Part shown: positions 23,400 to 38,555 of the stretch, in pieces
Layout: the number at the start of each line of letters is the position of its first letter
How positions within the stretch are numbered: position 1 is the stretch's first letter
DNA from: Candidatus Woesearchaeota archaeon
GTDB taxonomy: Archaea > Nanobdellota > Nanobdellia > Woesearchaeales > JABGUJ01
Reading direction: 5' to 3'
DNA length: 64,000 bases
Assembly (NCBI GenBank): GCA_018646625.1
Contig: JABGUJ010000001.1
Location: forward strand, 5,534-69,533
Translations under genes and position numbers: made by a program
Notes under the pieces: model-generated
Seen by the model: only the letters and a program-made list of their open reading frames with translations
The model's database searches: none
What the model was told of the DNA's origin: nothing

Positions 23400-23641
23400 T
23401 TTTTTGCGGAATAGCTAAATAGAGAGGTTCTGCGCTTTATAAAGATTTCGCAAAGACACCACTTAAGAGGGACAACGAGTTTAATTTCCATATTGAAAAT
23501 AAACACCAAATACAAAATAGAACATTATATAAAGAGTAAATTAAAGGAATAGCAGAAACAGTCACTGTATCGAGTGTAAAAACAAGACACAGTGAAAAAA
23601 CATAAAAACTAAGATAAAAAATTTTAGTGGAGTAATAAAAA

Positions 23642-23839
23642 ATGAACGGAAGAGTAAAGTTCTTCAACGAACAAAAAGGATTTGGCTTTATTGAAGCTGA
23701 AGATGGAAAAGACTACTTTGTACACCAAACTGGTATTAACGAAGGCGTTGTAATCAGAGAGAATGATAATGTTTCTTTCGAAGTTGCTGACGGCGATAGA
23801 GGCCTAAAGGCTGTAAACGTTGCTCTAGCAGAAGAATAA
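23642..23839 (+). CDS. csp: Cold-shock protein (CspA family)
   Basis: RNP1/RNP2 motifs KGFGFI and DYFVHQ in a 65-aa protein; about 240-nt untranslated region upstream. Confidence 0.88.
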   Translation: MNGRVKFFNEQKGFGFIEAEDGKDYFVHQTGINEGVVIRENDNVSFEVADGDRGLKAVNVALAEE

Positions 23840-23896: not shown

Positions 23897-25033
23897 TTAA
23901 ACAAAAACAAATTTTTCTTTTTCTACCATTTTTATTGCAAGAGGCTTAGACACATCTCCAAATTCATCGAACGTAGTCAATCCTCCGACACCCCTATAGT
24001 CAGTAACACCATATAACTCATCTCTAATACAGATAGAGTCTTGGCCACAAACTTCTAGAGCTAAAGCAATAATCATAACAGCATCATAGCTATCTGCTGC
24101 AGTTCTCTCAGGCAAATCACCATAACGAGTAACAAAGTCATCAACAAAATCACCAATGATCATATCATCACTCTCAGGATCGAATGCAGGTGCAGTGTAA
24201 AGTATACCATCAGCCGCTTCACCAGCCACATCAAGTAAATCTTGACTTTCAATAATCACAGGCGCTAAGATTTGTGATTCAATACCCAATTCTTTTGCTT
24301 GTTTAACAGCCAACTCAAGTGACAAACCAGCAAAATAAACAACATCCGAATCGGATGACTTAATCTTAATCAACTGTGTTCTAAAATCATTAACAGATTT
24401 ATCATAAGACTCCTGCACAATAACCTCACCACCCAGTTCCCTAAATCTTGTAACAAACGCATCATTGTAATCTACACCATTAGCTAAATTCAAAAACAAC
24501 GTCGACGCAGTCCTCGCACCCAACACATCATAAGCATACTCAGCCATATACTTTCCATGTACATCTCCACTTATACTGTTCCTGAAAACAAAATCTCCTG
24601 CATCACGAATTCTAGGAGCAGATGCAACCGTAGAAAAAACAACAGTTTGCGAGATCTCAGCAACTGGAGCTACAGCCATAACGTTTGATGAACTTGTAGG
24701 ACCAATAACAACAGAAACTTTGTCATTATCAATTAATTTTCTAAGTGCCAACAAAGCCCTAGTCTTATCAAACATACTATCCTCATACACAACTTCTAAT
24801 CTTTTACCGCTAATGCCGCCTTTAGAATTAATTTCTTCAACAGCTAAATCAACACCTTTTCTAACATTCTCTGCATGCCATGCCGCCTTCCCAGTAAAAG
24901 GTTGAACCGCACCGATCTTGATAACATCATCTTCAACAACTTGAGCAGTAATTTGACTTGAACCGCAACCACCCAAAATAATGATCATAAATAAAGCTAA
25001 AGCTATCTTAAATTTCATTTGTAGTACCTCCAA
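23897..25033 (-). CDS. LivJ-like (Peripla_BP_6) solute-binding lipoprotein, orphan (cassette 1)
   Basis: Lipobox ILGGCGSS; N-terminal IKIGAVQPFTGKAAWHAENVRKGVDLAVEEINSKGGISGKRLEVVYEDS typical of the Leu/Ile/Val-binding family. Confidence 0.75.
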   Translation of the reverse strand: MEVLQMKFKIALALFMIIILGGCGSSQITAQVVEDDVIKIGAVQPFTGKAAWHAENVRKGVDLAVEEINSKGGISGKRLEVVYEDSMFDKTRALLALRKLIDNDKVSVVIGPTSSSNVMAVAPVAEISQTVVFSTVASAPRIRDAGDFVFRNSISGDVHGKYMAEYAYDVLGARTASTLFLNLANGVDYNDAFVTRFRELGGEVIVQESYDKSVNDFRTQLIKIKSSDSDVVYFAGLSLELAVKQAKELGIESQILAPVIIESQDLLDVAGEAADGILYTAPAFDPESDDMIIGDFVDDFVTRYGDLPERTAADSYDAVMIIALALEVCGQDSICIRDELYGVTDYRGVGGLTTFDEFGDVSKPLAIKMVEKEKFVFV

Positions 25034-25139
25034 CAGAATGCCTAAACCCTAATAATCAAAGAGTAAAGAAACTATATAAGAATTTGTCGTAAATAAAATA
25101 TGACAACATTTAAATATCTCATAGAATACACAAATACCA

Positions 25140-25838
25140 ATGAAAGAAGCGCTAAGAGAGTATGGGCTTTCAGACAACGAAGCAAACGTATATCTAGCAG
25201 TTCTAAAGTTAGGAGAATCACCCGTAACAGATATAGCCAACAAAGCCAACACTTACAGAACCTTAACGTACGAAGTCCTAAAATCATTAGAAGACAAAGG
25301 TTTAGTCAGCTCAGTAATAAGAGATAAGAAAAAACATTTTATTGTAGCAAGCCCTGAAAAATTATTACAAGGATTAAAAGAAAAAGAAAGAAGAATTCAA
25401 GAAATCATGCCAGACCTATTATCAATTCACAAATCTGTTTCTATTAAACCGACAATGACCGTATATTCAGGTACAGAAGGAATCAAAAATATTTTCCAAG
25501 ACATTCTTAACGTTGGAGAGGATTTCATAGCCATTGCATCAGTTGAACAAGTCAGATCAAAAATTGATTTTATGTTTAAACACTTCATATTAAAAAGAGT
25601 TGAACTGAAAATGAAGGCTAAACTAATTATTGACAAAGAACCACTAACAAAAGAACTCACAGAGTACAAAGTAATGGATTTTAGTGTACCAACCCTTCTA
25701 TATGTATACGCAAATAAAGTTGCAGTAATAAATGTTGGAACTGAATTAGTAGGAATGATAATTGAAAGTGAGGATTACGCTAAAACACAAAAAATGATGT
25801 TTGATTGGATGTGGAACACAGCTAAGAGTAAGCCATAG
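25140..25838 (+). CDS. TrmB-family HTH transcriptional regulator, short form (cassette 1)
   Basis: N-terminal LREYGLSDNEANVYLAVLKLGESPVTDIANKANTYRTLTYEVLKSLEDKGLVSS matches the TrmB HTH. Confidence 0.7.
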   Translation: MKEALREYGLSDNEANVYLAVLKLGESPVTDIANKANTYRTLTYEVLKSLEDKGLVSSVIRDKKKHFIVASPEKLLQGLKEKERRIQEIMPDLLSIHKSVSIKPTMTVYSGTEGIKNIFQDILNVGEDFIAIASVEQVRSKIDFMFKHFILKRVELKMKAKLIIDKEPLTKELTEYKVMDFSVPTLLYVYANKVAVINVGTELVGMIIESEDYAKTQKMMFDWMWNTAKSKP

Positions 25839-26952
25839 GAATACTATTTCTAATAACTTTAGGAGCTAAAACTTTACCAAAACCGCCAGTAACAGAATCA
25901 TAGTCTAAAACACCAGACGCACCTTGATAATTTCTCAACATTGCAACATACGCGCCTAAACAATCACTATTGAACTTAGAATTTTCACATTTGACTAATG
26001 CATTCTTCAATATCATCAATGCATCATAGCTATCTCTATTAACAATACCACTACTACGATTATAACGAGACATAAACTCAGACTCAAACCCTTTATCAAC
26101 AATACCAGAATAAACATACAATACCCCTTCATCAGCACCAGCCGCACCTTGAATCTCGTACGGTTCCTCGACAGCCATATCAGACAACAAAGTTAAATTC
26201 AAACCCAACTCCCTCATCTGATTAAATATTAATCCGCCCCTACCATAAAGAACAAGTATTGCATCAGCACCAGATTCAGAAATCTTAGCTAACCGAGTTC
26301 TAAAATCAGAATCCGAATAATCATAACTTTCAACAACTGTCAACTCACCACCTAAATTCCTCAACGTACTACCAAAAGCCCCAATATAAGCTTGCGCCCA
26401 ATCATTGTCAATGTGAATCACACCCACTTTTCGAACACCAGACTCAAAAGCAACTTTAGCCAATTCTTCACCTTCGCGACCTATCAAAAATCTCGTACTA
26501 AAATAATATTTAGTCAACTTACCAAAATTATCCCCAGGAGTAATTAGAAAAACTTTTTTCTCATCCACCAAATTTGCCGCAGCTTTAACAGAAGAACCAC
26601 AAAATGGACCCAACAAAGCAACAACATCATCCATCTCAACTAATTTATGAACGGCATTAACAGTATTCTGAGGTCTACAACCATCATCTTCGTAAACCAA
26701 CTCAATTAATCTACCATTAACACCACCTAAAGAATTAATTTCTTCGAGAGCCATTTCAAATCCGTCCCGCATACGTTCACCATAAAACGCAATCGGACCT
26801 GCAAAAGGACCTACCACTCCAACCTTAATCGGCTCTAGCTCCACACTCTCCTCTACAACATTATTAGAACAACCTACAACAAACAAAAGCAACAAAATCA
26901 TAAAAAATGCTAGTCTCATAGTATATTCATTAACAGAAGCATATTTAAACAT
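25822..26952 (-). CDS. LivJ-like solute-binding lipoprotein, orphan (extra copy)
   Basis: Lipobox VVGCSNN; IKVGVVGPFAGPIAFYGERMRDGFEMALEEINSLGGVNGRLIELVYEDD. Confidence 0.75.
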   Translation of the reverse strand: MFKYASVNEYTMRLAFFMILLLLFVVGCSNNVVEESVELEPIKVGVVGPFAGPIAFYGERMRDGFEMALEEINSLGGVNGRLIELVYEDDGCRPQNTVNAVHKLVEMDDVVALLGPFCGSSVKAAANLVDEKKVFLITPGDNFGKLTKYYFSTRFLIGREGEELAKVAFESGVRKVGVIHIDNDWAQAYIGAFGSTLRNLGGELTVVESYDYSDSDFRTRLAKISESGADAILVLYGRGGLIFNQMRELGLNLTLLSDMAVEEPYEIQGAAGADEGVLYVYSGIVDKGFESEFMSRYNRSSGIVNRDSYDALMILKNALVKCENSKFNSDCLGAYVAMLRNYQGASGVLDYDSVTGGFGKVLAPKVIRNSIPMAYS

Positions 26953-26971
26953 AACTATAAACTAAAACAAA

Positions 26972-27622
26972 ATGACACTTATTGTAGGTATTGACGAAGC
27001 AGGACGTGGACCAGTCATCGGACCATTAGTTATTGCAGGGGTAATGATCAATGAAAAAGACGAACCAAAACTAATCAAATTAGGCGTAAAAGATTCTAAA
27101 CAACTTACGGAAAAAAGAAGAAATGAGTTATTTCAAGAGATTAAAGACTTAGGCGTAGAATATGAAATTCTAATCATACATCCAGAAGAAATTGATGAAA
27201 CTCTAAGAAGTCCATCATCTAACTTAAACTGGTTAGAAGCAGACAAATCTGTAGAAATAATAAAAAAATTAAAACCTGATGGCGTCATATTAGATTGTCC
27301 ATCAACCGTTCCAGAAAAATACAAACAATATGTTGAACAAAAACTCAAAGACAAAACGAACGTGATTGCAGAACATAAAGCAGACGATACATATCCGGTA
27401 GTCAGTGCAGCTTCTATCTTAGCAAAAGTAACAAGAGACGCAGAGATTGAAGCAATAAAAAAGAAATACGGAGACTGCGGATCAGGCTATCCTTCAGATC
27501 CTAAAACTCAAGATTTTCTTAAGAAAAATTTTAAGAAATTTCCTGAAATATTCAGACAAACTTGGGAAAGTTACAAAAATATAATAAGAAAAAAAGAACA
27601 AAAAGGTTTAGGAGATTTTTAA
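26972..27622 (+). CDS. rnhB: Ribonuclease HII
   Basis: IVGIDEAGRGPVIGPLVIAGV catalytic motif and C-terminal SAASILAK motif. Confidence 0.88.
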   Translation: MTLIVGIDEAGRGPVIGPLVIAGVMINEKDEPKLIKLGVKDSKQLTEKRRNELFQEIKDLGVEYEILIIHPEEIDETLRSPSSNLNWLEADKSVEIIKKLKPDGVILDCPSTVPEKYKQYVEQKLKDKTNVIAEHKADDTYPVVSAASILAKVTRDAEIEAIKKKYGDCGSGYPSDPKTQDFLKKNFKKFPEIFRQTWESYKNIIRKKEQKGLGDF

Positions 27623-28755
27623 GCATCTACAAACTCGCCATCCCTAAACACTTTCAAGATAAAATCGCTTTCATCTCTTATAACATCTCCATTGTGATCA
27701 AATCTAAGACGACCAGAAGAACCTTCATGATCTACCCCGTATAATCCGTTTTTTATACAGACCGGATCTTCACCACACTGCTCTAACAACCCGGCATAGA
27801 TATATACAATATCATAAGCCAAGTAAGGATGAATTGTTGGTTCCTTCCCAGCAATCTCAATATATTTCTCTCGAAAACGTTTAGTCTTAGGATTATCGCT
27901 CTCCATATCAAACTCATAAAAGGAATATATTCCTTCAGCAGCCTCTCCCGCAATCTGATAAACTTCAGGACCCCACGAAGACGGATTAATCATAAATGGA
28001 ACATCAATACCCAACTCTCTTGCTTGTTTAACTATCAGACCCCCTTCTTCTGAATGAGACACAAAAAACATAACATCAGGATCACCCGACTTTATTTTCA
28101 AAAGATAAGTTCTAAAATCATGATCTCCGGTCTCAAACTTTTCATAAGCAATAATCTCGCCGCCCAACTCTTCAAACTTCTTCACAAAAGCATCTCCTAA
28201 CCCAACACCATAATCAGAGTTCTTCACAATAACTGCAGCTTTCTTAGCATTAAGAACTGAAACCGACTTTTCAGCAATCTTAAAAGCTTCAACATCGCCA
28301 GCAACCTTGGCCCTAAAAGTAAAATCGCCAGCATATCTCAAGTGAGGAACCGCAGAACCCGGAGTAAATATAGGAATTTGTGATTGCTCAGCAAATGGCG
28401 CAATGTACAAACTATTAACAGTCACATCACTTATCACTGCACTAACACCTCTTGCGGCTAGACTTTGAAATGCTTTTATCGCTTCCTTAGGTTGAGCCAT
28501 ACTATCTTCCATAATAATCTCTAAACGTTTACCATTTATTCCACCATTAGAATTAATTTCATCTTGCGCAATCTGCACGCCTCTCCACACCCTAACACCA
28601 TAAGAATCAGAATTCGCCCCACTCATTGGCATGACCGCCCCAATAGTATAAACTTCTTCTTGCTTAACTACTTCACCAGTAACCCCACATCCAACTATAA
28701 ACATCAAAGCTAACGCTACTAACAATAATCTTAATTTCATTTTTACCTCCAACAA
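27619..28755 (-). CDS. LivJ-like solute-binding lipoprotein, orphan (cassette 2)
   Basis: Lipobox IVGCGVTG; YTIGAVMPMSGANSDSYGVRVWRGVQIAQDEINSNGGINGKRLEIIMEDS. Confidence 0.75.
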   Translation of the reverse strand: MLEVKMKLRLLLVALALMFIVGCGVTGEVVKQEEVYTIGAVMPMSGANSDSYGVRVWRGVQIAQDEINSNGGINGKRLEIIMEDSMAQPKEAIKAFQSLAARGVSAVISDVTVNSLYIAPFAEQSQIPIFTPGSAVPHLRYAGDFTFRAKVAGDVEAFKIAEKSVSVLNAKKAAVIVKNSDYGVGLGDAFVKKFEELGGEIIAYEKFETGDHDFRTYLLKIKSGDPDVMFFVSHSEEGGLIVKQARELGIDVPFMINPSSWGPEVYQIAGEAAEGIYSFYEFDMESDNPKTKRFREKYIEIAGKEPTIHPYLAYDIVYIYAGLLEQCGEDPVCIKNGLYGVDHEGSSGRLRFDHNGDVIRDESDFILKVFRDGEFVDA

Positions 28756-28868
28756 CTTAACGCCAAAACACCTACTTCACCAAGAGCAAAATAAAGATAT
28801 AAAACATCCCCCACCCCGCAGGGGGTTGAATAGAAACACTTAAATAGAATTCAAGCTATAAAACCCCT

Positions 28869-29621
28869 ATGAACACAGAATTACTAAGAGAAATTGGCCT
28901 AACAGACTCTGAAATAAAGGTATATTTAGCATTATTAGAACTAGGATCATCTACCGCGGGACCGATAATAGAAAAATCAAAAGTAACATCATCAAAGATT
29001 TATGAAATACTAGAAAGGCTGATGCAAAAAGGATTAGTTAATTTTGTTATCAAATCTGGAACTCGCTACTACGATACACAATCTCCTTCAAGACTAAAAG
29101 AATATCTACAAGAGAAAAAAAGAACAATACAAGAACAAGAAATCGAAATTGAGAAACTAATTCCGCAACTTGAAATTAAAAGAGAATTAGCGAAGAACAA
29201 GAACGAAGCTTCAATCCATAAAGGCATCAAAGCAATTAAAAATTTCTACCTAAACATATTAGATGAGCTAAATCCAGGAGATGAATATTTTGTTCTTGGT
29301 GCAAATTATGGAGATCACGCAATGGGCATAAGATCCTTTTTTCATAAATACCACCAACAAAGAGCAGATAAAAAAATCAAATTAAATATGCTAGTAAACT
29401 CAGATACAAGAGGCACACTAGTAGAAACTACCGCCCTCAACTCGGAAGTTCGTTACCTCCCCCCGCATTTAATGAGTAACATGACAACAGTATTTTACAA
29501 AAACAAAGCATTTATTTTCTTCCTAACATCAGAACCCACCGGCTTCTTAATAGAAAGCAAAGAAGTCGTTGACGGATTTAGGTCATACTATGACACTTTC
29601 AAGAGAATAGCAAAAAAATAA
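28869..29621 (+). CDS. TrmB-family HTH regulator paralogue (cassette 2)
   Basis: LLREIGLTDSEIKVYLALLELGSSTAGPIIEKSKVTSSKIYEILERLMQKGLVNF. Confidence 0.7.
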   Translation: MNTELLREIGLTDSEIKVYLALLELGSSTAGPIIEKSKVTSSKIYEILERLMQKGLVNFVIKSGTRYYDTQSPSRLKEYLQEKKRTIQEQEIEIEKLIPQLEIKRELAKNKNEASIHKGIKAIKNFYLNILDELNPGDEYFVLGANYGDHAMGIRSFFHKYHQQRADKKIKLNMLVNSDTRGTLVETTALNSEVRYLPPHLMSNMTTVFYKNKAFIFFLTSEPTGFLIESKEVVDGFRSYYDTFKRIAKK

Positions 29622-29683
29622 AATCATATAGAAATACATTTAAAGAATAGTGCCTTAAGAGTTATAAGTTAGCAGAACAAGAG

Positions 29684-31033
29684 GTGAATTTTATTAACGA
29701 CAACAATCATGCATTTTATTTAGTAATGATAGTTTCTATAGTTGCAATTGTAGGAATATTTATTATTGTTTCTAGGGGACCAAACACATTAGAGAAAGAT
29801 ATTGCTGGAGAGGCAACTAGAGCAATCACAGGAGAGATCATAAAAAAACCATTAATGACGCATGTAAATGATGCGTGGATTTACTCCAACATGGAAGTCT
29901 TAGAACTTGGGAAGACTGTCAAAATTCACAGAACAAATGTACTTTTCAAGAAAAAATTAACACCCGAGATAAAAAAAATAAGAGACGCAAAAGCAACAAG
30001 ATTTGTTAGAATACCAAAGTTCATGATCTGTCTAAACAACATATGCAATAACTATAAATTGAGCGATAAAATTGTGATTGAGGAAATAACATATACGCTA
30101 AGCAGTACAGACAACAAAATTAGATTAATCTCTAACAATATTGATGATTGGGATATTCTTCCTCAGATAGCAACACAAATATTTGAACAGACAGAAACCC
30201 ATAATATTCCCGTGATAGAACCGGCAGGCCATTTTAAGACCTATATAGAAGAGAATGTCGATCAAAGGGTCCCTAAATACTTACAAGTTGGCATAATAGT
30301 AGATGACACCGACTACACAATAACTGATGAAGAAATAGAGGACTTCATCAGTCTTATGGACAAAGAACTGTCGAAAAAAACAAACATAAATGTGAAATTA
30401 CACGGAATAAGACATACAAATTTTGGAATAACGGCAGATAATTATTATAACGAAAACAATGATAATCCACCAGATTATGTCATTATCTTTAGAAGCAATA
30501 CAATCTCATTAAGTTATGGAGGTTACGCAATAACCTCCTCTAACCTCATCGAAGAAGGATACTGTAATAATTTTGTTTCTCCTTACCAGAGTGCAAATCT
30601 TATTTGGGGTGCTGTAATTGATTGGACTCATATATATTCCGGATGTGGTTATGACTTAGAGCATTACAAAAGCACAGGAGAGTTAAATCATATAAGTAAC
30701 GTAAGTTTAGATGATGGTTCATGCAAAAACCAAGCAGGGATAGCTTGTGTATTTAACGACATTGTTGAGTACTATGCCTGCAGTAATAAGGATCCCTCCC
30801 ACCCCTATCTACAAAGCAAGATGTCTTTTTTAGCATTTGTAGCCATACATGAATTATTACACCACTTCGGCAATACCCATAATTACGATCATTTTGGAAC
30901 AGACACATGTGATGATATCATGGGAAGCGAAGATTACAAGCAAAGCTGGAATCATCTTTCGTCTTTTGGCATGTGCCCCTATACCATCGACAATCTCGCA
31001 ACAAGTTATAATTATCTGCGAATATGTAGTTAA
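29684..31033 (+). CDS. Membrane-anchored putative zinc metallopeptidase with metzincin-type HExxHxxGxxH motif
   Basis: N-terminal TM anchor; near the C-terminus HELLHHFGNTH followed by Cys/Met-containing segment (TDTCDDIMGS...MCPY); otherwise no similarity recognised. Confidence 0.4.
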   Translation: MNFINDNNHAFYLVMIVSIVAIVGIFIIVSRGPNTLEKDIAGEATRAITGEIIKKPLMTHVNDAWIYSNMEVLELGKTVKIHRTNVLFKKKLTPEIKKIRDAKATRFVRIPKFMICLNNICNNYKLSDKIVIEEITYTLSSTDNKIRLISNNIDDWDILPQIATQIFEQTETHNIPVIEPAGHFKTYIEENVDQRVPKYLQVGIIVDDTDYTITDEEIEDFISLMDKELSKKTNINVKLHGIRHTNFGITADNYYNENNDNPPDYVIIFRSNTISLSYGGYAITSSNLIEEGYCNNFVSPYQSANLIWGAVIDWTHIYSGCGYDLEHYKSTGELNHISNVSLDDGSCKNQAGIACVFNDIVEYYACSNKDPSHPYLQSKMSFLAFVAIHELLHHFGNTHNYDHFGTDTCDDIMGSEDYKQSWNHLSSFGMCPYTIDNLATSYNYLRICS

Positions 31034-31034
31034 G

Positions 31035-32198
31035 TCACTCAACCAAAACAAATTCACCATTTCTAACAGTTTTCATTTGTATTGGCCGATAAAGGCCCCA
31101 AATTCCATTCTCAAACTCCAAGTCTCCGCCAGCTCCAGAATATGATTCCATAGACGACAAGTACTCCACTAAACAGTCAGCATCACCATCACAAACTTCA
31201 AAACCTTCAAATAATAACATCAAAACATCATATCCAACAGCACCATAGTACTTATCAACTAATGCCTCACCATAATGCAATTCATACTCAGCTATAAACT
31301 CAGCACTCACAACATCTTCAGGATCAAAGTCATACATAATAGCAGTAACACCATCAGCTGCGTCACCCGCTAAAGCAACAACACTATCATAAGACACCAA
31401 CTCTTGGCCATATACAGGCAACTCAACTTCAAGCTCCTTAATTTGCTTCAACATCATTGCCGCACCAGGAATACCAATTGGTAAAATCAACATCGCTTCT
31501 GGCTCTGCATCTTTAACCTTTAGGATTTGAGTTCTCATATCTGAAGAACCAAAGTCATAAGTCTCAGCAATAATAACATCCCCACCAAGTTTCTCAAACT
31601 CTTCTGTGAAAACTTCATAATAACCAATGGGATAATCATTGTTTTCATAGATTACACCAACAGTTTTTATTTCATGAGAGCTAATCAACTTTGCAGCTTC
31701 AGTTGCAGCCAACCGTGAAGATGCAGATATTCTAAAAACATAGTCACCCGCATATGTTATCTTTGGTGATGCAGCTACAGGAGTAATATGAATTATTTTG
31801 TTTGCTTCCGCAATCGGAGCAACAGCCAATGCAACACTGCTACAAATTCCTGTAACAATTACATCAACTTTATCCACATTAACAAACTTATTTGCAATAA
31901 TTGCAGCCTCACTTGGATTACACCTGCTATCCTCAACTACAATCTCAATCTTCTTACCACCCATATTGATCTGATCTAAAGCCAACAAAAGGGATTTTTC
32001 AACAGGATAACCAACACTAGCCAACGGCCCGGTCTGAGGAACCATGAATCCAACCTTAACTACATCTTTCTCAACTTTTACAACTTCACCAGTAACTGTA
32101 CCACAACCAGTAAATACGCTAAACACTAACAATAAAGCTACCGCTAAAACAATCAGTTTATTCATTTTAAGCCTCCAGATGACCTCTTTAGAAGCCAA
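31035..32198 (-). CDS. LivJ-like solute-binding lipoprotein, orphan (cassette 3)
   Basis: Lipobox FTGCGTVTG; VKVGFMVPQTGPLASVGYPVEKSLLLALDQIN...KIEIVVEDS. Confidence 0.75.
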   Translation of the reverse strand: MASKEVIWRLKMNKLIVLAVALLLVFSVFTGCGTVTGEVVKVEKDVVKVGFMVPQTGPLASVGYPVEKSLLLALDQINMGGKKIEIVVEDSRCNPSEAAIIANKFVNVDKVDVIVTGICSSVALAVAPIAEANKIIHITPVAASPKITYAGDYVFRISASSRLAATEAAKLISSHEIKTVGVIYENNDYPIGYYEVFTEEFEKLGGDVIIAETYDFGSSDMRTQILKVKDAEPEAMLILPIGIPGAAMMLKQIKELEVELPVYGQELVSYDSVVALAGDAADGVTAIMYDFDPEDVVSAEFIAEYELHYGEALVDKYYGAVGYDVLMLLFEGFEVCDGDADCLVEYLSSMESYSGAGGDLEFENGIWGLYRPIQMKTVRNGEFVLVE

Positions 32199-32268
32199 CC
32201 TCTTTTTTGTTACTACTTAACAGATACATTAAATATATAAATACTCCCTCCCACCAAGTGAGGTGTAA

Positions 32269-33027
32269 ATGAAAAAAGAGAAACTATCTTCAACATTAGA
32301 GAATATAGGCCTCACTAAAGGCGAAATCACAATTTACTTCTCATTACTAGAATTAGGCTCAACAACTACGGGAAAGATAATAGAAAACGCACAAATATCA
32401 TCTGGCAAAATATACGAAATACTTGACAAACTGATAAACAAAGGTTTGGTGAATTACATAGTAAAAGGAAAAATAAAATATTTTAATGCAGCCACACCAG
32501 ATTCTCTTTTAGAATTTGTTGAAGAGAAAAAATCTAACCTAGAAAAGAGAGAAAAAGAAATCAGAAACATTCTTCCAGATCTAAAAGAGTTACATAAATT
32601 CACAGAAGAAGAAAGTTGCGCAGTAGTCTATAAAGGGATCAAAGGATTAAAACATGCAGCAGATCTAACATTGGAACACGCAGAACCTGGTGATGAATAC
32701 ACAGCAATGGGATTAGTGGAACACAAACCAGAAAAATTCAACCTATTCTGGAGACAGTTCCATCAAAAACGTGCAGAGAAAGGTGTAAAAACAAGACTAC
32801 TATTTGCAGAGGAAAGCGAAAGATATGCAAAACAACTAAAAAACATTCCGTTATCAGAAGTAAGAGTCTTAAAATCAGTTAGCGCATCAGCTGTAACACT
32901 TATAGGCCCACATCTGAAAATAATAGATTACGACAGTGAAACCACAATATATATCAAGAATAAATACATAGCAAAATCATTCAAAGCATTCTTTGAAAGT
33001 CTTTGGAAACTAGGAGATAAAGTATAA
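32269..33027 (+). CDS. TrmB-family HTH regulator paralogue (cassette 3)
   Basis: LENIGLTKGEITIYFSLLELGSTTTGKIIENAQISSGKIYEILDKLINKGLVNY; GAGGTG SD 5 nt before ATG. Confidence 0.7.
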   Translation: MKKEKLSSTLENIGLTKGEITIYFSLLELGSTTTGKIIENAQISSGKIYEILDKLINKGLVNYIVKGKIKYFNAATPDSLLEFVEEKKSNLEKREKEIRNILPDLKELHKFTEEESCAVVYKGIKGLKHAADLTLEHAEPGDEYTAMGLVEHKPEKFNLFWRQFHQKRAEKGVKTRLLFAEESERYAKQLKNIPLSEVRVLKSVSASAVTLIGPHLKIIDYDSETTIYIKNKYIAKSFKAFFESLWKLGDKV

Positions 33028-33851
33028 TGACCCACATCAACGTCGATAAAAAACAACTAGACAAATTAAGAGAGCAAGGGTTCTTCGATATAGAACTAAA
33101 AACAGAATATGAAACACGAAGAATGCAAAGACTTCAACCCAAAACATCATTAATTCTCTACAATTCAAAAAAACTAGTAATCCAAGCAAGTGATGAAATC
33201 AAAAAACAAGTTGAACACACACTTAAAGACCTAGCAATTGGTAAGAAGTTAACAAAACAAGAAGTACAAAAGATCATCCTCACAGGCACCACCATTGGTT
33301 CGGATGAAACTCTAAAAGGCGATACATTTGGAGGGTTAGTTGTCGCAGCCGTAAGGGTAGATGACAAAACAAGAGAATCATTAGAATTACTAGGAGTACA
33401 AGATTCAAAAAAAATCAAAGATGAAAAGATTGCAGGATTCTCAGAAGAAATAAAACGAATAGTAGGGAAAGAAAACTACGCAATAAAAAACGTCAAACCA
33501 AAAGAATACAACAAACATGATTCACAAGATCTCCTTAACGCACTCCACACTCAAGTCGCATTAGAACTTGGTGAAGGAACTCACATAGTAGATCAATATC
33601 CAGGATGTAAAGTGGGGGATATCAAAGAATTCAAAGCAGAATCAAAATACCCCAGCGTTGCAGCCGCATCAATCATTGCAAGAGACGCAGCGTTAAAACA
33701 ATTAGGAACATTAAGCAACGAACTAGGCATAGATATTCCAAAAGGTTCAACACATGTTAAAGAAGCATTAGAATATCTAAAGAGGTCAAAGAGAAACCCT
33801 GAAGAGTTCGTAAAGATGCACTTCAGAAATGTTAAAGAAATATTCAGCTAA
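33027..33851 (+). CDS. rnhC: RNase HIII-like ribonuclease (RNase HII family with about 95-aa N-terminal extension)
   Basis: GSDETLKGDTFGGLVVAAV resembles the RNase HIII GSDE-GKGD catalytic motif; C-terminal KYPSVAAASIIAR matches the RNase HII-family SAASI motif; start overlaps the TrmB stop by 1 nt. Confidence 0.55.
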   Translation: MTHINVDKKQLDKLREQGFFDIELKTEYETRRMQRLQPKTSLILYNSKKLVIQASDEIKKQVEHTLKDLAIGKKLTKQEVQKIILTGTTIGSDETLKGDTFGGLVVAAVRVDDKTRESLELLGVQDSKKIKDEKIAGFSEEIKRIVGKENYAIKNVKPKEYNKHDSQDLLNALHTQVALELGEGTHIVDQYPGCKVGDIKEFKAESKYPSVAAASIIARDAALKQLGTLSNELGIDIPKGSTHVKEALEYLKRSKRNPEEFVKMHFRNVKEIFS

Positions 33852-33939
33852 AATGCCAAGATTCTGGCGTTACAGACATTAACAAGCAAAAACTTTATAA
33901 AAGTCGTAAAAAACAAATAAAGCAAAAAAGGGGATATGA

Positions 33940-36900
33940 TTGACTAAGATAAATAAATTGGTTATGAGGGGTTTCAAGAGCTTCGCTAAGAAGACAGAAC
34001 TCATCTTTGGAGATGATTTTAACGTCATTCTTGGCCCCAACGGATCAGGAAAATCTAATGTTCTAGACGCCCTATGCTTTGTATTAGGCAAGTCAAGTGC
34101 AAAAGCACTTAGAAGTGAAAAATCCGCCAACCTAATCTATAACGGTGGCAAGAGTAAAAAACCAGCATCCGAAGCAGAAGTTAGTATCTATTTCGACAAC
34201 ACAAAAAAAGAACTACCTACTGAAGAAGATCAAGTTAAGATCACAAGACTTGTAAAACCAAGCGGACAAAGCGTATACAAAATAAATGACGTAACAAGAA
34301 CTCGACATCACATCATAGAACTTCTAAGCATAGTGAAAATTAATCCTGATGGTTATAACATTATACTCCAAGGAGACATTGTGCGATTCTGTGAAATGTC
34401 ACCCAACGATCGTAGAGTTCTAATTGAAGATATATCTGGAATTGGCATGTATGAAGAAAAGAAGAACAAAGCCATAAATGAACTAAACAAAGTTGAAGAA
34501 AGACTAAAAGAAGTAGAAATTATACTATCAGAAAGAGAATCAAGACTTAAAGATCTAAAGAAAGAAAGAGATCAAGCACTAGCATTCAATGACCTTAACC
34601 AAAAAATAACCCAGAACAAAGCAACTTACATTTACAAGAACATAAAAAACAAACAAGAATCTGTTGATAAACAAGACAATAGAATTAGAAAAGAAAGAGA
34701 AGAACTAGACAAAGCAAATGGAGAAATCCAGAAAATCAAATATCTAATAGAACAAAAGAAGAAAGAAATTGAAGAAATTAATAAAGAAATTGAACAGAAA
34801 GGCGAGAAAGATCAAGTCACAATCCATAAACAAGTAGAAGAACTAAAAATTGATCTGGCAACATCTACAGATAAAGTCAAGAATCACGAAAATGAGATCG
34901 TGAAACTTAATACAAGAAAAGAAAATGTTAACCGAAGCCTGGCAGAGATACAAGCCAAAATAGATACCCTCTTCCAACAAAGAAATGATACTAAGAAATC
35001 GTTCCAGTCTGCTGCAAATCTAAAAGAAGAGATTGAAAAGAAAATTAAAGACTTTAAGAAGAAGAATAATCTCGATAACCTTGGAGACATAGAGAAAGAA
35101 GTTGACATCCTTGACACAGATGCAGAAGCTAAACAAAAAGAAATTCAAGATGCAAGACAGCAACAGCAAAACCTTCTAAGAGAAAAAGATAGAATTGAGA
35201 TGCAAATTCAATCTGTGGACGAGAAGATAAACAAAGTATTAGAGCTACAAAAAGAAAACAAATCTCAACTAGAAGAACTCAAATATAAGAAAGAAGAATT
35301 CAAGAAAACCACATCACAATTATCAAAGAGAATAAATGACGATTCAAGCTACGCCGCTCAATTAGGGGAATCCAGAAAAAAATTAATGGTGGCCAACGAA
35401 GAGCTAGCTAAACTAAGAAACAGAAGTGTAGGAATTCAAGAAAAGATAGCAGGAAACATCGCACTTAAAAGAATATTAGAAGAAAAGAAAAGCATCCCCG
35501 GGATCTACGGCACTGTCTCCGAGTTAGGAGAAGTTCAAACCAGATACTCTTTAGCACTAGAAGTCGCTGCGGGAGCTAAAATCAAAAGCGTAGTAGTAGA
35601 AAGCGACGCAGTTGCCTCTAAATGCATCTCATTCCTTAAAGAAAATAAATTAGGTATTGCAACATTTTTACCATTAAACAAAATTAAAGGCAGAACTAGC
35701 GACCCCAAAGTCAAAGTATTATCAAGATCAAATGGGGCACACGGCCTAGCCATTGATTTAATCACGTACGATTCAAAGTTCAAGAATGTATTTGAATACG
35801 TTTTCTCAGATACGGTGGTCGTTGAGAACATCACAACAGCAAGAAGAATTGGGATTGGTTCTGCTAAAATGGTTACTCTTGATGGAGATACGGCAGAGGT
35901 ATCAGGAGCAATGCAAGGCGGTTTTAGAAAACGAGAGAAAGGTTTAGGATTTGTAGAAAAAGAAGTATCAAGATCACTGAAACAATATGAAAAAGTCTCA
36001 GAAGAGATGGAAATAAAGATATCCTCAATACAAACACAGAAATCTGTCAATGAAGAAGAGATCGTAAAATTAAGAGAATTCAAAGCACATCTAGAAGGAG
36101 ACATAATCAAACTTGAAAAGATACTACATCTGGACTCAGGAGACACAGAAGCTAACAATAAACTAAGAAAAGAACTAGAACAACAAGCAGAAAAGATGGA
36201 CAGCGACATAAACAAAGTCCAGAACACCCTTAGTGGAATGAATCGAGAATTGGCCCAAAACAAGATAGCCAAACAAGAGTTAAGAAACAAGATTAACGAA
36301 CTAAGAAACCCTGTTTTGATTGCAGAATTAAACGCATTTGAAGAGAAAAGAAAAGAACTTAACGAAACCATGATCAAGACAGAAGCAGAGTTAAACAGCA
36401 TCAAAGCCCAAGTTAAAAACATATTAGAACCAGAAATATCAAACTTAAACAAAGTCAAGAGAGAACTCAAAAGTGAAGAAGAAAACATCACCGAGAGTAT
36501 AAAATCTACTAAAAAACACATTTCTAGCTTGAAAACAGAACTAACATCTAAAGAAAAAGAACAAAAACGATTCCAAGAACAATTTAAAGGATTATTTGGT
36601 CAAAGACAAAAACTTAGTGACGAAGTAAGCAAACAAGAAACTAAATTGGGTACATATGACGAACGTTCAAGACAAGCAGAACACAAAATAAACGCAATCT
36701 CATTAGAAAGTGCAAAGTTCAAAGCAGAACTTGAAGCGCTAAGACAAGAATATGAACCTTACAAAGATGTTGACTTAATTATGAACAAGTCCGTCGACCA
36801 ACTAAAACAAGAGATCTACAACGCAGAACGAAGAATAGAACGTATGGGTAGCATTAACATGAGATCTCTAGAAATCTATGATCAAATTGAAAAAGAATAC

Positions 36901-37434
36901 CATAGCTTAGTTGAAAAGAAAGAAAGACTAAGATTAGAGAAAGAAGATGTAATGGCCATGATGGATGAAATTGAAGGCAAAAAAGTAATACAGTTCATGA
37001 AAACGTTCGAAGGCGTTAATGAACATTTCAAAAACATCTTCCTAGCATTATCCACAAAAGGGGATGCCTCAATGGTTCTAGAAAATAAAGAACAGCCATT
37101 TGACGGCGGCGTATTAATTAAAGTAAAAATCTCAGGTAACAAGTTTATGGACATCAGAAGTTTATCGGGTGGAGAGAAAACAATGACTGCACTAGCATTT
37201 ATCTTCTCAATCCAAGAACACGATCCAGCATCATTCTACATAATGGACGAAGTTGATGCAGCTCTAGACAAAAAGAATTCCGAAAGGCTGGCACAACTAG
37301 TAAAGAAATACTGCGACAGAGCACAATACGTGGTAATAAGCCATAATGATTCAGTAATTTCAGAAGGAGATAGACTATACGGCGTATCAATGGACGAACA
37401 CGGAGTAAGTAAAGTTGTCAGCCTTAAAGTTTAG
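33940..37434 (+). CDS. smc: Chromosome segregation protein SMC
   Basis: N-terminal Walker A GPNGSGKSN, long coiled coils, hinge (IPGIYGTVSELGEV...), C-terminal signature LSGGEKT and Walker B FYIMDEVDAALD; 1164 aa. Confidence 0.9.
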   Translation: MTKINKLVMRGFKSFAKKTELIFGDDFNVILGPNGSGKSNVLDALCFVLGKSSAKALRSEKSANLIYNGGKSKKPASEAEVSIYFDNTKKELPTEEDQVKITRLVKPSGQSVYKINDVTRTRHHIIELLSIVKINPDGYNIILQGDIVRFCEMSPNDRRVLIEDISGIGMYEEKKNKAINELNKVEERLKEVEIILSERESRLKDLKKERDQALAFNDLNQKITQNKATYIYKNIKNKQESVDKQDNRIRKEREELDKANGEIQKIKYLIEQKKKEIEEINKEIEQKGEKDQVTIHKQVEELKIDLATSTDKVKNHENEIVKLNTRKENVNRSLAEIQAKIDTLFQQRNDTKKSFQSAANLKEEIEKKIKDFKKKNNLDNLGDIEKEVDILDTDAEAKQKEIQDARQQQQNLLREKDRIEMQIQSVDEKINKVLELQKENKSQLEELKYKKEEFKKTTSQLSKRINDDSSYAAQLGESRKKLMVANEELAKLRNRSVGIQEKIAGNIALKRILEEKKSIPGIYGTVSELGEVQTRYSLALEVAAGAKIKSVVVESDAVASKCISFLKENKLGIATFLPLNKIKGRTSDPKVKVLSRSNGAHGLAIDLITYDSKFKNVFEYVFSDTVVVENITTARRIGIGSAKMVTLDGDTAEVSGAMQGGFRKREKGLGFVEKEVSRSLKQYEKVSEEMEIKISSIQTQKSVNEEEIVKLREFKAHLEGDIIKLEKILHLDSGDTEANNKLRKELEQQAEKMDSDINKVQNTLSGMNRELAQNKIAKQELRNKINELRNPVLIAELNAFEEKRKELNETMIKTEAELNSIKAQVKNILEPEISNLNKVKRELKSEEENITESIKSTKKHISSLKTELTSKEKEQKRFQEQFKGLFGQRQKLSDEVSKQETKLGTYDERSRQAEHKINAISLESAKFKAELEALRQEYEPYKDVDLIMNKSVDQLKQEIYNAERRIERMGSINMRSLEIYDQIEKEYHSLVEKKERLRLEKEDVMAMMDEIEGKKVIQFMKTFEGVNEHFKNIFLALSTKGDASMVLENKEQPFDGGVLIKVKISGNKFMDIRSLSGGEKTMTALAFIFSIQEHDPASFYIMDEVDAALDKKNSERLAQLVKKYCDRAQYVVISHNDSVISEGDRLYGVSMDEHGVSKVVSLKV

Positions 37435-38555
37435 AATTCAGATAAAACATCCATAATTTCTTTAACAGTTTTGTCCCAAGAATATTTGTACATAATTGTT
37501 TTTCTAGCATGACTACCCATTTCTTTTCTTAAATCATCATTCTTAACAATTTTAGCTAGATGCGCAGCCATTTGCTCGGCATTACGCAGCTCAAACAAAT
37601 AACCATTTAACCCTCTTTTCACATATTTCTTAATCAAACCAACACCAGTTGTGACAACTGGAACACCACAACTCATTGCTTCCATAGTAGCAAGAGAAGT
37701 TGTTTCAGTAAGAGAAGATAAAGCAAACACATCCATCGCTTGATAATACGGAATCACATTATCCGTACCAGAAACCTCTATAATATTCGAAGAATCCTTA
37801 AAAATAGAATTAAAAGGCAATCCTTTACCGACAACCAATAACATCACGTCATCTCTTTTCTCTCTAAGAATCGAAAACGCATTGTAAAGCGTAGTCAAAT
37901 CTTTCTCTCTCGCAATCCTACCAGCATAGCCAATAACTTTTTTCCTGAAATTTATACCAATATTAGATTTTGCAATATTTTTATTTTTCGGAGGACAGAA
38001 TTTCTTAACATCTACACCCAAATGCACTAAATCCATCCTAGACTTAACACCAACTTTTCTCAACTCATCAATTAATCCATCATAAGGAACTAAAAGCAAA
38101 TCACATTTATTGTAAAAGTGCCTAGTCAACCATTTAATAGACTTTAAAGAGAACTTTTTAAGCAAAGGCCTTTCAAAAATACTTCTTGAAACCAACTCCC
38201 ACTCATAAGAATGAACAAAAGAAATTGTTGGCTTCTTATACTTCTTACCATACTTTATTGCCATCGCACCTATCGATCCTATGGTGTGTGACCAAACAAT
38301 ATCCGCATCCTTAACCAGTTTTTTAATTTTCCTGGGTTGAAGAGTAGCAGGAACAAAGTCACCAACCCTCATTTTATGCAACGGTACTCTAACAACAGTC
38401 ACCCCTTTTATTTCAACAACATGACCTTCGTAAGCCGGAGCAATAACTGTTACTTTGTATTTTTTAGCTAAATAAGGTAACAACTCAGCAAGAAATCTGG
38501 CAATACCATCCCATCTCGGGAGAAAACAATCCGATGCAATTAAGAGCTTTTTCAT
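37431..38555 (-). CDS. GT4-family glycosyltransferase (PIG-A/BshA-like GlcNAc transferase)
   Basis: GT-B fold with C-terminal motif SLTETTSLATMEAMSCGVPVV (the E-x7-E region of GT4 enzymes). Confidence 0.7.
   Translation of the reverse strand: MKKLLIASDCFLPRWDGIARFLAELLPYLAKKYKVTVIAPAYEGHVVEIKGVTVVRVPLHKMRVGDFVPATLQPRKIKKLVKDADIVWSHTIGSIGAMAIKYGKKYKKPTISFVHSYEWELVSRSIFERPLLKKFSLKSIKWLTRHFYNKCDLLLVPYDGLIDELRKVGVKSRMDLVHLGVDVKKFCPPKNKNIAKSNIGINFRKKVIGYAGRIAREKDLTTLYNAFSILREKRDDVMLLVVGKGLPFNSIFKDSSNIIEVSGTDNVIPYYQAMDVFALSSLTETTSLATMEAMSCGVPVVTTGVGLIKKYVKRGLNGYLFELRNAEQMAAHLAKIVKNDDLRKEMGSHARKTIMYKYSWDKTVKEIMDVLSEF

What the first reader, a model, noticed from the sequence alone, without database searches (positions are those of the whole stretch)
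26972..33851. RNase HII and an RNase HIII-like paralogue both embedded in the cassette array
ORF 26972-27622 is a canonical RNase HII (GIDEAGRG). ORF 33027-33851 carries GSDETLKGDTFGG and a C-terminal SAASIIAR motif, with an extra N-terminal domain of about 95 aa. This is the RNase HIII layout, which is common in Firmicutes and, as far as I know, rare in archaea. It is translationally coupled to a TrmB-like gene through a 1-nt overlap. Having two RNase H2-family enzymes, each wired next to a regulator and binding-protein cassette, is unexpected.
Basis: partly seen in the sequence, partly recalled or inferred. Interest (0 to 1): 0.6.

Follow-up and report, generated by a model that had tools for sequence, protein, structure and literature searches.

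The report
Archaeal RNase HII plus RNase HIII pair
This small symbiotic-type (DPANN) archaeon carries an ordinary RNase HII and a genuine but divergent RNase HIII, an enzyme the literature treats as almost purely bacterial; in its relatives the two genes sit side by side, and here strain-variable regulator and binding-protein cassettes have been wedged between them.

Summary
Both ORFs exist as described. ORF 26972-27622 is a textbook archaeal RNase HII, with the DEDD site, the GRG motif, the junction tyrosine and a C-terminal PCNA-binding-type motif. ORF 33027-33851 is a true RNase HIII relative. Its catalytic domain scores 100 bits on the rnhC model against 60 bits on archaeal HII. It has the HIII-type DEDE site and lacks the HII tyrosine. 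Its N-terminal domain matches bacterial HIII N-domains (hhalign 96.6%) and TBP (E 4e-7). The AlphaFold model's four best solved-structure matches are the RNase HIII entries.

It belongs to a discrete clade found in DPANN archaea: 71 clusters at 50% identity and relatives in 227 species genomes. The clade carries an L-K-G motif where HII has GRG, and it scores below NCBI's rnhC cutoff.

The proposed wiring to cassettes is not conserved. In 45 of 67 related loci HII lies directly upstream of HIII, and in some the two genes overlap. One subclade has the order HII-HIII-SMC-glycosyltransferase-PIG-L. None of 84 loci has a binding-protein gene nearby, and 3 have a TrmB-like gene. In the window, 5.4 kb of cassette DNA splits the pair. 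A sister strain with an identical HIII protein carries different content there.

I found no paper linking RNase HIII to DPANN archaea. Verdict: new member of a known kind, moderate interest.

The parts
26972..27622 (+). RNase HII, archaeal type (216 aa). Catalytic residues D8, E9, D108, D138; G11-R12-G13; Y173; C-terminal Q210-K-G-L-G-D-F216 PIP-box-like motif.
   Evidence: Pfam PF01351 179.8 bits and TIGR00729 234.8 bits against a cutoff of 123.3. 189 bits to P. horikoshii RNase HII 1uax, with the catalytic residues aligned to Tk-RNase HII D7/E8/D105/D135. All 15 DPANN HII proteins checked end in QxxL[GSA][DEQ][FW].
33027..33851 (+). RNase HIII, DPANN subfamily (274 aa). Catalytic residues D93, E94, D189, E205 (DEDE); L96-K97-G98 in place of GRG/GKG; S241 at the position of the HII tyrosine.
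   Evidence: TIGR00716 rnhC is the best NCBIfam hit at 106 bits, below the 161.2 cutoff. The best sequence matches among solved structures are RNase HIII entries: 3vn5, 2d0a, the 2d0a point mutant 3asm, and 4py5. The Foldseek top 4 are all RNase HIII. The NJ tree gives HIII monophyly at 100% bootstrap.
33027..33281 (+). N-terminal TBP-like substrate-binding domain plus linker (residues 1-85; strand-helix-four strands-helix). K49 and Q53 are invariant and align with Bst-RNase HIII K50 and Q54.
   Evidence: AlphaFold2 model with pLDDT 90.1. hhalign against bacterial HIII N-domains gives 96.6%. The N-domain profile hits TBP 1mp9 at 4e-7. 27 of 48 family members hit Pfam PF11858, though the window protein itself does not.
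33282..33851 (+). Type 2 RNase H catalytic domain of the HIII protein (residues 86-274).
   Evidence: Scanned alone it scores 100.1 bits on rnhC, 60 bits on archaeal HII and at most 43 bits on bacterial HII models.
32269..33027 (+). TrmB-like HTH regulator (252 aa). Its TAA stop overlaps the HIII ATG by 1 nt.
   Evidence: PF01978 51 bits; far below the NCBIfam TrmB equivalog cutoffs. TAATG read directly from the sequence. A TrmB-like gene lies near HIII in only 3 of 84 related loci.
27623..33026 (.). 5.4-kb strain-variable block separating HII from HIII. Contents: binding protein (-), TrmB-like (+), a 449-aa HExxH protein (+), binding protein (-), TrmB-like (+).
   Evidence: In relatives HII directly precedes or overlaps HIII. 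Sister assembly L086, with an identical HIII protein, holds three cassettes here and no 449-aa gene. Nucleotide identity to the window is 99.1% to the right of position 31163 but 90.0% on the HII side.
27619..28755 (-). Peripla_BP_6 substrate-binding protein paralogue, convergent with HII with a 4-nt overlap.
   Evidence: PF13458 169 bits; 40.6% identical to the paralogue at 23897-25033.
28869..29621 (+). TrmB-like regulator paralogue.
   Evidence: PF01978 63.5 bits.
29684..31033 (+). 449-aa protein with no family match, an N-terminal hydrophobic segment and a HELLHH (HExxH) motif. Absent from the sister strain.
   Evidence: Translation; no Pfam or NCBIfam family; no homologue in L086.
31035..32198 (-). 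Peripla_BP_6 paralogue, divergent from the TrmB-like gene at 32269.
   Evidence: PF13458 171 bits.
23897..26952 (.). Left part of the array: binding protein (23897-25033, -), TrmB-like (25140-25838, +), binding protein (25822-26952, -), the last one divergent from HII.
33940..39205 (.). Conserved downstream synteny: SMC (33940-37434, +), GT4 glycosyltransferase (37431-38555, -), PIG-L deacetylase (38552-39205, -).
   Evidence: The same order follows HIII in L005, L010, L012, L056, L063, L072 and L083. The SMC assignment rests on the precomputed Pfam annotation of the matching genes (PF02463 SMC_N, PF06470 SMC_hinge).

Best explanation
The window comes from a Woesearchaeota-type DPANN archaeon that carries two type 2 RNases H with divided roles.

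The 216-aa enzyme is an orthodox archaeal RNase HII. It has the DEDD active site, the GRG-plus-tyrosine junction sensor and a C-terminal PCNA-interaction-type motif. I infer that it works at the replication clamp, nicking 5' of single embedded ribonucleotides and at RNA-DNA junctions.

The 274-aa enzyme is a genuine RNase HIII. An N-terminal TBP-like domain holds the hybrid duplex, and a DEDE catalytic domain lacks the junction tyrosine and has Leu in place of the first glycine of the GRG motif. By analogy with bacterial RNase HIII, I infer that it cuts longer RNA/DNA hybrids (primers, R-loops), the job RNase HI does in other organisms.

The protein belongs to a discrete, vertically conserved subfamily found in several DPANN lineages. 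Its ancestral gene order is HII-HIII as a tandem, often overlapping, pair. One subclade continues with SMC, a GT4 glycosyltransferase and PIG-L.

In this genome a strain-variable array of divergently transcribed binding-protein and TrmB-like cassettes has expanded around HII and between HII and HIII. HIII is therefore now overlapped by, and probably co-transcribed with, a TrmB-like gene. That coupling is a local accident of genome rearrangement, not a conserved regulatory design.

Shown here: family membership, domain homology, conservation of the catalytic residues, synteny, and strain variability. Inferred: substrate preference, PCNA binding, co-transcription, and the order of events.
For: HII identity.

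HIII identity:
- rnhC is the best model for the full protein and for the catalytic domain alone.
- The sequence and profile searches against solved structures are topped by the RNase HIII entries, with alignments spanning both domains.
- D93/E94/D189/E205 align with Bst D97/E98/D202/E232.
- The model has pLDDT 90.1, and its Foldseek top 4 are all RNase HIII.
- N-domain homology: hhalign 96.6% and TBP hits.

Clade:
- The best 120 of 961 hits carry only DPANN-type archaeal names where a source gives one, and 115 of them have [STA]LKG. The 120 bacterial-type HIII have VGT, AGK or SGK.
- 227 species genomes encode a relative.
- 71 clusters at 50% identity reach E<=1e-30, followed by a score gap.
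- NJ tree: DPANN HIII monophyletic at 100%, all HIII at 100%, DPANN HII grouped with Thermococcales HII at 96%.

Synteny:
- HII lies upstream on the same strand in 45 of 67 eligible loci, 17 of them within 150 nt, and overlaps HIII (ATGGTAA) in L010, L012 and L056.
- The HII-HIII-SMC-GT4-PIG-L block is seen.
- TrmB-like genes occur in 3 of 84 loci and binding-protein genes in 0 of 84.

Strain variability and the identity break inside the array.
Against: - The protein scores below NCBI's rnhC equivalog cutoff (106 against 161.2 bits).
- Its own N-domain does not reach Pfam PF11858.
- The first glycine of the G(R/K)G motif is replaced by Leu, with unknown catalytic consequences.
- No biochemistry exists for any member of this clade.
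- The left flank of HII is not syntenic with relatives, so 'insertion between HII and HIII' cannot be told apart from a more complex rearrangement.
- The TAATG overlap means HIII expression in this strain may really depend on the TrmB-like gene's promoter.
- Whether these genomes lack RNase HI was not tested.
Confidence: 0.85

Rival explanations
1. The two RNase H genes are functional components of the cassette array. Each would be regulated by the adjacent TrmB-like regulator, perhaps in response to a ligand sensed by the binding protein.
For: The TrmB stop and the HIII start overlap (TAATG). HII is divergent from a binding-protein gene across only 19 nt. The TrmB-HIII junction is stable in four independent assemblies of this population.
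Against: Among 84 related loci there were 0 binding-protein neighbours and 3 TrmB-like neighbours of HIII. The conserved neighbours are HII, SMC and HIT genes. The cassette content between HII and HIII differs between strains that share an identical HIII protein. The cassette paralogues are old (27-41% identity) and also occur away from any RNase H gene, at 53.7-55.7 kb.
Confidence: 0.08
2. The 274-aa protein is just a second archaeal RNase HII paralogue with an unrelated N-terminal extension.
For: Pfam reports only PF01351 for the window protein. It shares 29% identity with the neighbouring HII over 207 residues.
Against: The catalytic domain prefers the rnhC model by 40 bits. It groups with HIII in 100% of bootstraps. 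It has K-A-E rather than K-A-D, and no junction tyrosine. The N-domain is homologous to HIII N-domains and to TBP. Foldseek aligns both domains to the RNase HIII crystal structures.
Confidence: 0.02
3. The gene is a recent horizontal acquisition from a bacterium (Firmicutes, Aquificota or Chlamydiota), or comes from a contaminating bacterial contig.
For: RNase HIII is overwhelmingly bacterial in the literature. The best single solved-structure match is Aquifex RNase HIII.
Against: The clade is monophyletic and separated from every sampled bacterial group, with the LKG signature. It is embedded in archaeal gene order next to archaeal-type HII and SMC in dozens of MAGs. GC content is uniform across the region. 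An ancient interdomain transfer in either direction is not excluded.
Confidence: 0.05

Closest known systems
Bacterial RNase HIII (RnhC): Geobacillus stearothermophilus 2D0A, Aquifex aeolicus 3VN5, Thermovibrio ammonificans 4PY5
   Same: Two-domain layout with an N-terminal TBP-like domain and a type 2 RNase H domain. DEDE active site. No junction-sensing tyrosine. The conserved K/Q pair in the Y-x-S-G-K-x-x-x-Q-G strand of the N-domain. Length (274 aa) is similar to the Aquificota enzymes (257-279 aa). It coexists with an RNase HII, as in Aquifex and Bacillus.
   Different: Only 25-27% identity. Scores below the rnhC equivalog cutoff (106 against 161 bits, where bacterial members score 184-392). 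Has [STA]-L-K-G where bacteria have G-T-G or G-K-G. The host is an archaeon. The gene is in tandem with HII. No member has been characterised biochemically.
Archaeal RNase HII (Thermococcus kodakarensis 1IO2, Pyrococcus horikoshii 1UAX, Archaeoglobus fulgidus 1I39)
   Same: ORF 26972-27622 is a full member: DEDD, GRG, Tyr, a C-terminal PIP-like motif, and 189 bits to 1UAX. The HIII catalytic domain shares the fold (Foldseek E about 1e-10).
   Different: The HIII protein has the extra N-domain, Glu as the fourth acidic residue, Ser at the tyrosine position and no PIP-like C-terminus.
Previously reported archaeal RNase HIII (Methanosphaera stadtmanae in Kochiwa 2007; Methanosphaerula palustris in Brindefalk 2013)
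   Same: Archaeal genomes that combine HII with HIII. Brindefalk et al. already noted that archaeal HIII TBP domains are very divergent from the bacterial ones.
   Different: Those were one or two isolated euryarchaeal cases interpreted as possible transfers. Here it is a large, conserved clade found in several DPANN lineages with its own gene order. I did not compare sequences with those two proteins.
TATA-box binding protein (TBP) repeat
   Same: The N-domain profile detects archaeal and eukaryotic TBPs by sequence (1mp9 at 4e-7), over the S-G-K-x-x-x-x-G strand-turn-strand core.
   Different: A single copy, fused to a nuclease. Bacterial HIII N-domains detect TBP just as well, so this is not specific to the DPANN clade.

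Membership tests
RNase HIII (RnhC, TIGR00716 / COG1039) | Type 2 RNase H catalytic domain (PF01351) | tested here: met
   PF01351 91.2 bits over residues 90-269.
RNase HIII (RnhC, TIGR00716 / COG1039) | DEDE active site, with Glu rather than Asp as the fourth acidic residue in the K-A-[ED] motif | tested here: met
   D93, E94, D189 and E205 align with Bst D97, E98, D202 and E232. The first three are invariant in 48 relatives. The fourth is E in most members and D in at least two of the rows shown.
RNase HIII (RnhC, TIGR00716 / COG1039) | N-terminal TBP-like substrate-binding domain of about 80-90 residues (PF11858) | tested here: met
   The model shows a strand-helix-four strands-helix domain. 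hhalign against bacterial HIII N-domains gives 96.6%, E 5e-10. The full profile aligns from position 8-13 of 3vn5 and 4py5. TBP hits appear. Caveat: the window protein alone does not hit PF11858, although 27 of 48 relatives do.
RNase HIII (RnhC, TIGR00716 / COG1039) | Absence of the RNase HII junction-sensing tyrosine | tested here: met
   S241 (invariant P-K-G-S-T-H) aligns with Y173 of the window HII (G-S-G-Y-P-S) in the MAFFT alignment.
RNase HIII (RnhC, TIGR00716 / COG1039) | G-x-G motif after the D-E pair (G-T-G or G-K-G) | tested here: not met
   The window has T95-L96-K97-G98. 115 of 120 clade members have [STA]LKG, whereas all 120 bacterial-type sequences have a Gly at the first position. 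This is a subfamily signature rather than a reason for exclusion.
RNase HIII (RnhC, TIGR00716 / COG1039) | Score at or above the curated equivalog cutoff (161.2 bits) | tested here: not met
   106.4 bits. Six bacterial members score 184-392 bits.
RNase HIII (RnhC, TIGR00716 / COG1039) | Phylogenetic grouping with RNase HIII rather than RNase HII | tested here: met
   NJ tree on 190 columns: HIII monophyly in 200 of 200 bootstraps. The position of the clade within or beside bacterial HIII is unresolved; it is sister to all sampled bacterial HIII in 24.5% of bootstraps.
RNase HIII (RnhC, TIGR00716 / COG1039) | Mg2+-dependent cleavage of RNA/DNA hybrids, with weak activity on a single embedded ribonucleotide | not testable with these tools
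   Requires enzyme assays.
Archaeal RNase HII (TIGR00729) | Score above the equivalog cutoff; DEDD site; GRG motif; junction tyrosine | tested here: met
   ORF 26972-27622 scores 234.8 bits against a cutoff of 123.3. D8/E9/D108/D138, G11-R12-G13 and Y173 follow from the alignment to Tk and Pho RNase HII.
Archaeal RNase HII (TIGR00729) | C-terminal PCNA-interacting (PIP) motif | tested here: inconclusive
   The sequence motif QKGLGDF is present and is conserved in 15 of 15 DPANN HII proteins. Binding to PCNA was not tested.
TrmB family regulators | N-terminal TrmB winged-helix domain plus a sugar-binding C-terminal domain | tested here: inconclusive
   The HTH domain PF01978 is present (51 bits). 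No C-terminal sugar-binding domain was detected, and scores are far below the NCBIfam TrmB cutoffs (38.9 against 650). The gene is therefore 'TrmB-like' only.

The most novel reading that the evidence does not exclude
The tandem, overlapping HII-HIII gene pair of DPANN archaea could be a relic of the event that created RNase HIII. In this reading, an archaeal RNase HII underwent tandem duplication and fused to a single TBP-type domain, a fold native to archaea, and the gene was later transferred to bacteria. That would answer the question Brindefalk et al. (2013) left open about where the TBP domain of a 'bacterial' enzyme came from. The evidence does not exclude it. The clade is deep, monophyletic and not nested in any sampled bacterial group. 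Its N-domain is about as far from bacterial HIII N-domains as from TBP.
Probability: 0.1. Interest if true: 0.65.

Novelty: new member of a known kind. Interest (0 to 1): 0.4.

Why it matters
Reviews still describe RNase HIII as present in only a few bacteria, and the last targeted search for archaeal copies found two. This window is one representative of a large, conserved RNase HIII clade found in several DPANN lineages, with its own active-site signature and an HII-HIII gene pair.

That matters in three ways:
- It shows how genome-reduced archaea are equipped to remove RNA from DNA.
- It extends the noted link between RNase HIII and host-associated, small-genome organisms.
- It supplies the archaeal sequences needed to test where the enzyme's TBP-like domain came from.

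For annotation, most of these proteins are currently labelled 'hypothetical' by NCBI because they fall below the rnhC cutoff. The cassette context says more about a strain-variable binding-protein and TrmB array than about the RNases.

Tried and rejected
1. Remnant of the HII 3' end at the TrmB-HIII junction. The two 3' ends share only TAGGAGAT and the residues 'LGD'. The TrmB paralogues have C-termini of the same length, so I treat the match as chance.

2. DNA repeat D8 (23666-23697 against the HII 3' end). It looked like an HII fragment beside another cassette. It lies inside a 65-aa cold-shock protein gene (KGFGFI motif), so it is chance.

3. Repeats or composition marks bounding the 27623-33026 block. 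None were found beyond conserved coding motifs of the paralogues, and GC content is uniform.

4. 'Second-best match is archaeal HII' as a sign of archaeal origin. Bacterial HIII proteins show the same order of scores, so it is uninformative.

5. 'The DPANN N-domain is closer to TBP than the bacterial one'. The bacterial N-domain profile hits archaeal TBP equally well.

6. HIT-domain genes next to HIII as aprataxin-like partners. The closest solved relatives are Hint-type HIT proteins, and no aprataxin appears in the list.

7. Foldseek against AFDB50. The library was not available.

8. The NJ tree could not resolve whether the clade is sister to all bacterial HIII (24.5% of bootstraps). No maximum-likelihood tool was available.

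Full report
**Observation**

All coordinates hold. ORF 26972-27622 (+, 216 aa) and ORF 33027-33851 (+, 274 aa) are open as described. The upstream TrmB-like ORF ends in TAA at 33025-33027, and the last A is the first base of the HIII ATG (TAATG).

Two details of the finding need correction. The HIII motif reads VAAASIIAR, not SAASIIAR. The N-terminal extension is about 88 residues, not 95.

The window has about 35% GC throughout. Where a source names the closest relatives of its proteins, it calls them Woesearchaeota, Nanoarchaeota or Aenigmarchaeota, so this is a DPANN archaeal genome.

**RNase HII**

The 216-aa protein scores 234.8 bits on the archaeal RNase HII equivalog TIGR00729, against a cutoff of 123.3. 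It scores 189 bits against Pyrococcus horikoshii RNase HII.

Alignment to Tk-RNase HII places the DEDD residues at D8, E9, D108 and D138. The GRG motif is at residues 11-13 and the junction tyrosine at Y173.

The protein ends in QKGLGDF. All 15 DPANN HII proteins I extracted end in Q-x-x-L-[GSA]-[DEQ]-[FW], a PIP-box-like motif that the HIII proteins lack. It is canonical.

**RNase HIII**

For the 274-aa protein the best curated model is rnhC (TIGR00716, 106 bits, profile positions 35-284). Archaeal HII follows at 55 bits.

The catalytic domain alone (residues 86-274) still prefers rnhC: 100 bits, against 60 for archaeal HII and at most 43 for bacterial HII models.

The best sequence matches among solved structures are RNase HIII from Aquifex (3vn5), Geobacillus (2d0a, and its point mutant 3asm) and Thermovibrio (4py5). 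A profile of 48 relatives aligns to 3vn5 and 4py5 almost end to end, covering profile positions 8-13 through 262.

From these alignments D93, E94, D189 and E205 correspond to Bst D97, E98, D202 and E232. That is the HIII-type DEDE site (K-A-E-S where HII has K-A-D-D). S241 occupies the position of the HII tyrosine.

An AlphaFold2 model built on the family alignment has pLDDT 90.1. It shows a strand-helix-four strands-helix N-domain followed by the RNase H fold. Foldseek against the PDB returns RNase HIII entries as the top four hits, with alignments of 284-311 columns that span both domains. Archaeal HII structures follow, and weak TBP matches appear further down.

**The N-terminal domain**

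The window protein alone does not reach Pfam PF11858, but 27 of 48 relatives do.

A profile-profile comparison restricted to N-domains, 15 DPANN against 15 bacterial, gives 96.6% probability and E 5e-10 over the Y-x-S-G-K-x-x-x-Q-G core.

Window K49 and Q53 are invariant in the family. They align with Bst K50 and Q54; PDB entry 3asm is a Q54A mutant of Bst-RNase HIII.

The DPANN N-domain profile also detects TBPs directly: 1mp9 at 4e-7 and yeast TBP at 8e-6. The bacterial N-domain profile does the same. The extension is therefore the TBP-like domain of RNase HIII, and the refutation test fails to refute.

**A distinct DPANN subfamily**

The word-indexed search found 961 relatives. The best 120 are 45-59% identical, and the names that sources give them are all DPANN-type archaeal names. 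JGI often calls them 'ribonuclease HIII', while NCBI mostly calls them 'hypothetical protein'.

A scan of one genome per species found 227 genomes encoding a relative. Most of the 80 best are labelled DPANN.

The exhaustive search of 50%-identity representatives gives 71 clusters at E<=1e-30. A gap then separates them from roughly 300-aa proteins at about 90 bits, which I take to be bacterial-type HIII from their length.

After the D-E pair, 115 of 120 clade members have [STA]-L-K-G. All 120 bacterial-type sequences have V-G-T, A-G-K, S-G-K or T-G-T.

Bacterial HIII proteins score 184-392 bits on rnhC, against about 106 here.

In a neighbour-joining tree (190 columns, 200 bootstraps):
- all HIII group together in 100% of replicates;
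- DPANN HIII is monophyletic in 100%;
- the adjacent DPANN HII proteins group with Thermococcales HII in 96%.

Whether the DPANN clade is sister to all bacterial HIII is unresolved, at 24.5%. This rules out a recent duplicate of the neighbouring HII. It also argues against a recent import from any sampled bacterial group.

**Gene context**

I ran tblastn with window proteins against 84 related loci.
- Among the 67 loci with at least 2.5 kb of upstream sequence, HII lies upstream on the same strand within 2.5 kb in 45, and within 150 nt in 17.
- In L010, L012 and L056 the two genes overlap: HII ends ...Q-W-stop inside ATGGTAA, the start of HIII.
- The order HII-HIII-SMC-GT4 glycosyltransferase(-)-PIG-L(-) recurs in L010, L012, L056, L063 and L083, and partly in L005 and L072. 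It matches window 33027-39205.
- In another set of loci (35 of 84), HIT-domain genes follow HIII.
- A TrmB-like gene lies nearby in 3 of 84 loci, and a binding-protein gene in none.

So the conserved partner of HIII is HII. The window differs in having 5.4 kb (27623-33026) between them.

**The cassette array**

The window holds five Peripla_BP_6 paralogues (27-41% identity) and four TrmB-like paralogues (27-34%). They are arranged as divergent pairs, and seven of the nine genes lie around HII. These are old paralogues, not fresh duplicates.

Four independent assemblies encode the identical HIII protein. All four show TrmB-HIII-SMC-GT4-PIG-L.

One of them, L086, also reaches HII. It has three cassettes between HII and HIII and lacks the 449-aa HExxH protein of the window.

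At the DNA level L086 is 99.1% identical to the window from 31163 rightwards. It is only 90.0% identical over 25622-29623, and the stretch in between is non-homologous.

The array is therefore strain-variable. The break in identity suggests recombination within it. The RNase genes act as conserved anchors at its edge.

**Mechanism**

Shown:
- two type 2 RNases H with intact active sites;
- an HII with the junction-sensing module and a PIP-like tail;
- an HIII with a TBP-like nucleic-acid-binding domain and without the junction module.

Inferred from bacterial and archaeal enzymology, as reviewed in PMC9719913 and PMC13492167:
- HII initiates ribonucleotide excision at the clamp;
- HIII removes longer hybrids such as primers and R-loops, as RNase HI does elsewhere;
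- Leu in place of the first GRG glycine should further disfavour recognition of a single ribonucleotide.

Co-transcription of HII-HIII in relatives, and of TrmB-HIII here, is inferred from the overlaps.

**Novelty**

Kochiwa 2007 found HIII in 1 of 27 archaeal species. Brindefalk 2013 searched specifically for archaeal HIII and found two candidates. [quoted passage not shown]

Full-text searches combining HIII or rnhC with DPANN, Woesearchaeota, Nanoarchaeota or Pacearchaeota surfaced no paper linking them. A DPANN protein-family paper does not mention ribonucleases.

Automatic pipelines such as IMG already label many members as RNase HIII. So this is a new, undiscussed member clade of a known enzyme family, not a new kind of system.

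The most novel reading left open is that the HII-HIII tandem is the birthplace of RNase HIII. I give it about 10%.

Noticed in passing
window 23636-23833 (+): A 65-aa ORF, [28 protein letters not shown]..., is a CspA-type cold-shock protein (KGFGFI RNP1 motif) in a DPANN archaeon. The ORF listing did not list it.
   Followed up: partly
L004:8867-10044; the same arrangement in 35 of 84 related loci: In many relatives one or two HIT-domain genes (PF01230 with PF11969) follow RNase HIII on the same strand, 20 of them within 300 nt. The closest solved relatives are Hint-type, not aprataxin. The window has no homologue. A functional link to RNA-DNA junction processing is possible but unsupported.
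   Followed up: partly
window 29684-31033 (+): A 449-aa protein with no family match, an N-terminal hydrophobic segment and a HELLHH (HExxH) metalloprotease-like motif. It replaces a binding-protein and TrmB cassette present in sister strain L086.
   Followed up: partly
window 25622-41851 compared with L086: There is a sharp break in nucleotide identity between two strains that share an identical HIII protein. Identity is 99.1% to the right of window position 31163 and 90.0% on the HII side, with non-homologous DNA between. This suggests recombination inside the cassette array.
   Followed up: partly
window 23897-25033, 25822-26952, 27619-28755, 31035-32198, 53736-54860 (all on the - strand): Five Peripla_BP_6 paralogues with N-terminal hydrophobic segments ending in G-C (lipobox-like). 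Four of them are divergently paired with a TrmB-like gene. No ABC permease or ATPase gene lies beside them in this stretch.
   Followed up: no
P0272, P0286, P0289, P0297, P0300-P0302: Some clade representatives are only 194-218 aa and align from about residue 88 onwards. They are either truncated gene calls or RNase HIII-type catalytic domains without the TBP-like domain.
   Followed up: no
L006, L008, L011, L015 and many other loci: Many genome records carrying this DPANN-type gene cluster are titled 'uncultured Methanosarcinales archaeon'. One is titled Bathyarchaeota (L021) and one Campylobacterales (L055). These titles are probably placeholder or mis-binned labels.
   Followed up: no
window 20308-21246 (+): A 312-aa ORF with a MazE/AbrB-type antitoxin-like N-terminal domain (PF04014, 30 bits), upstream of the array.
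   Followed up: no
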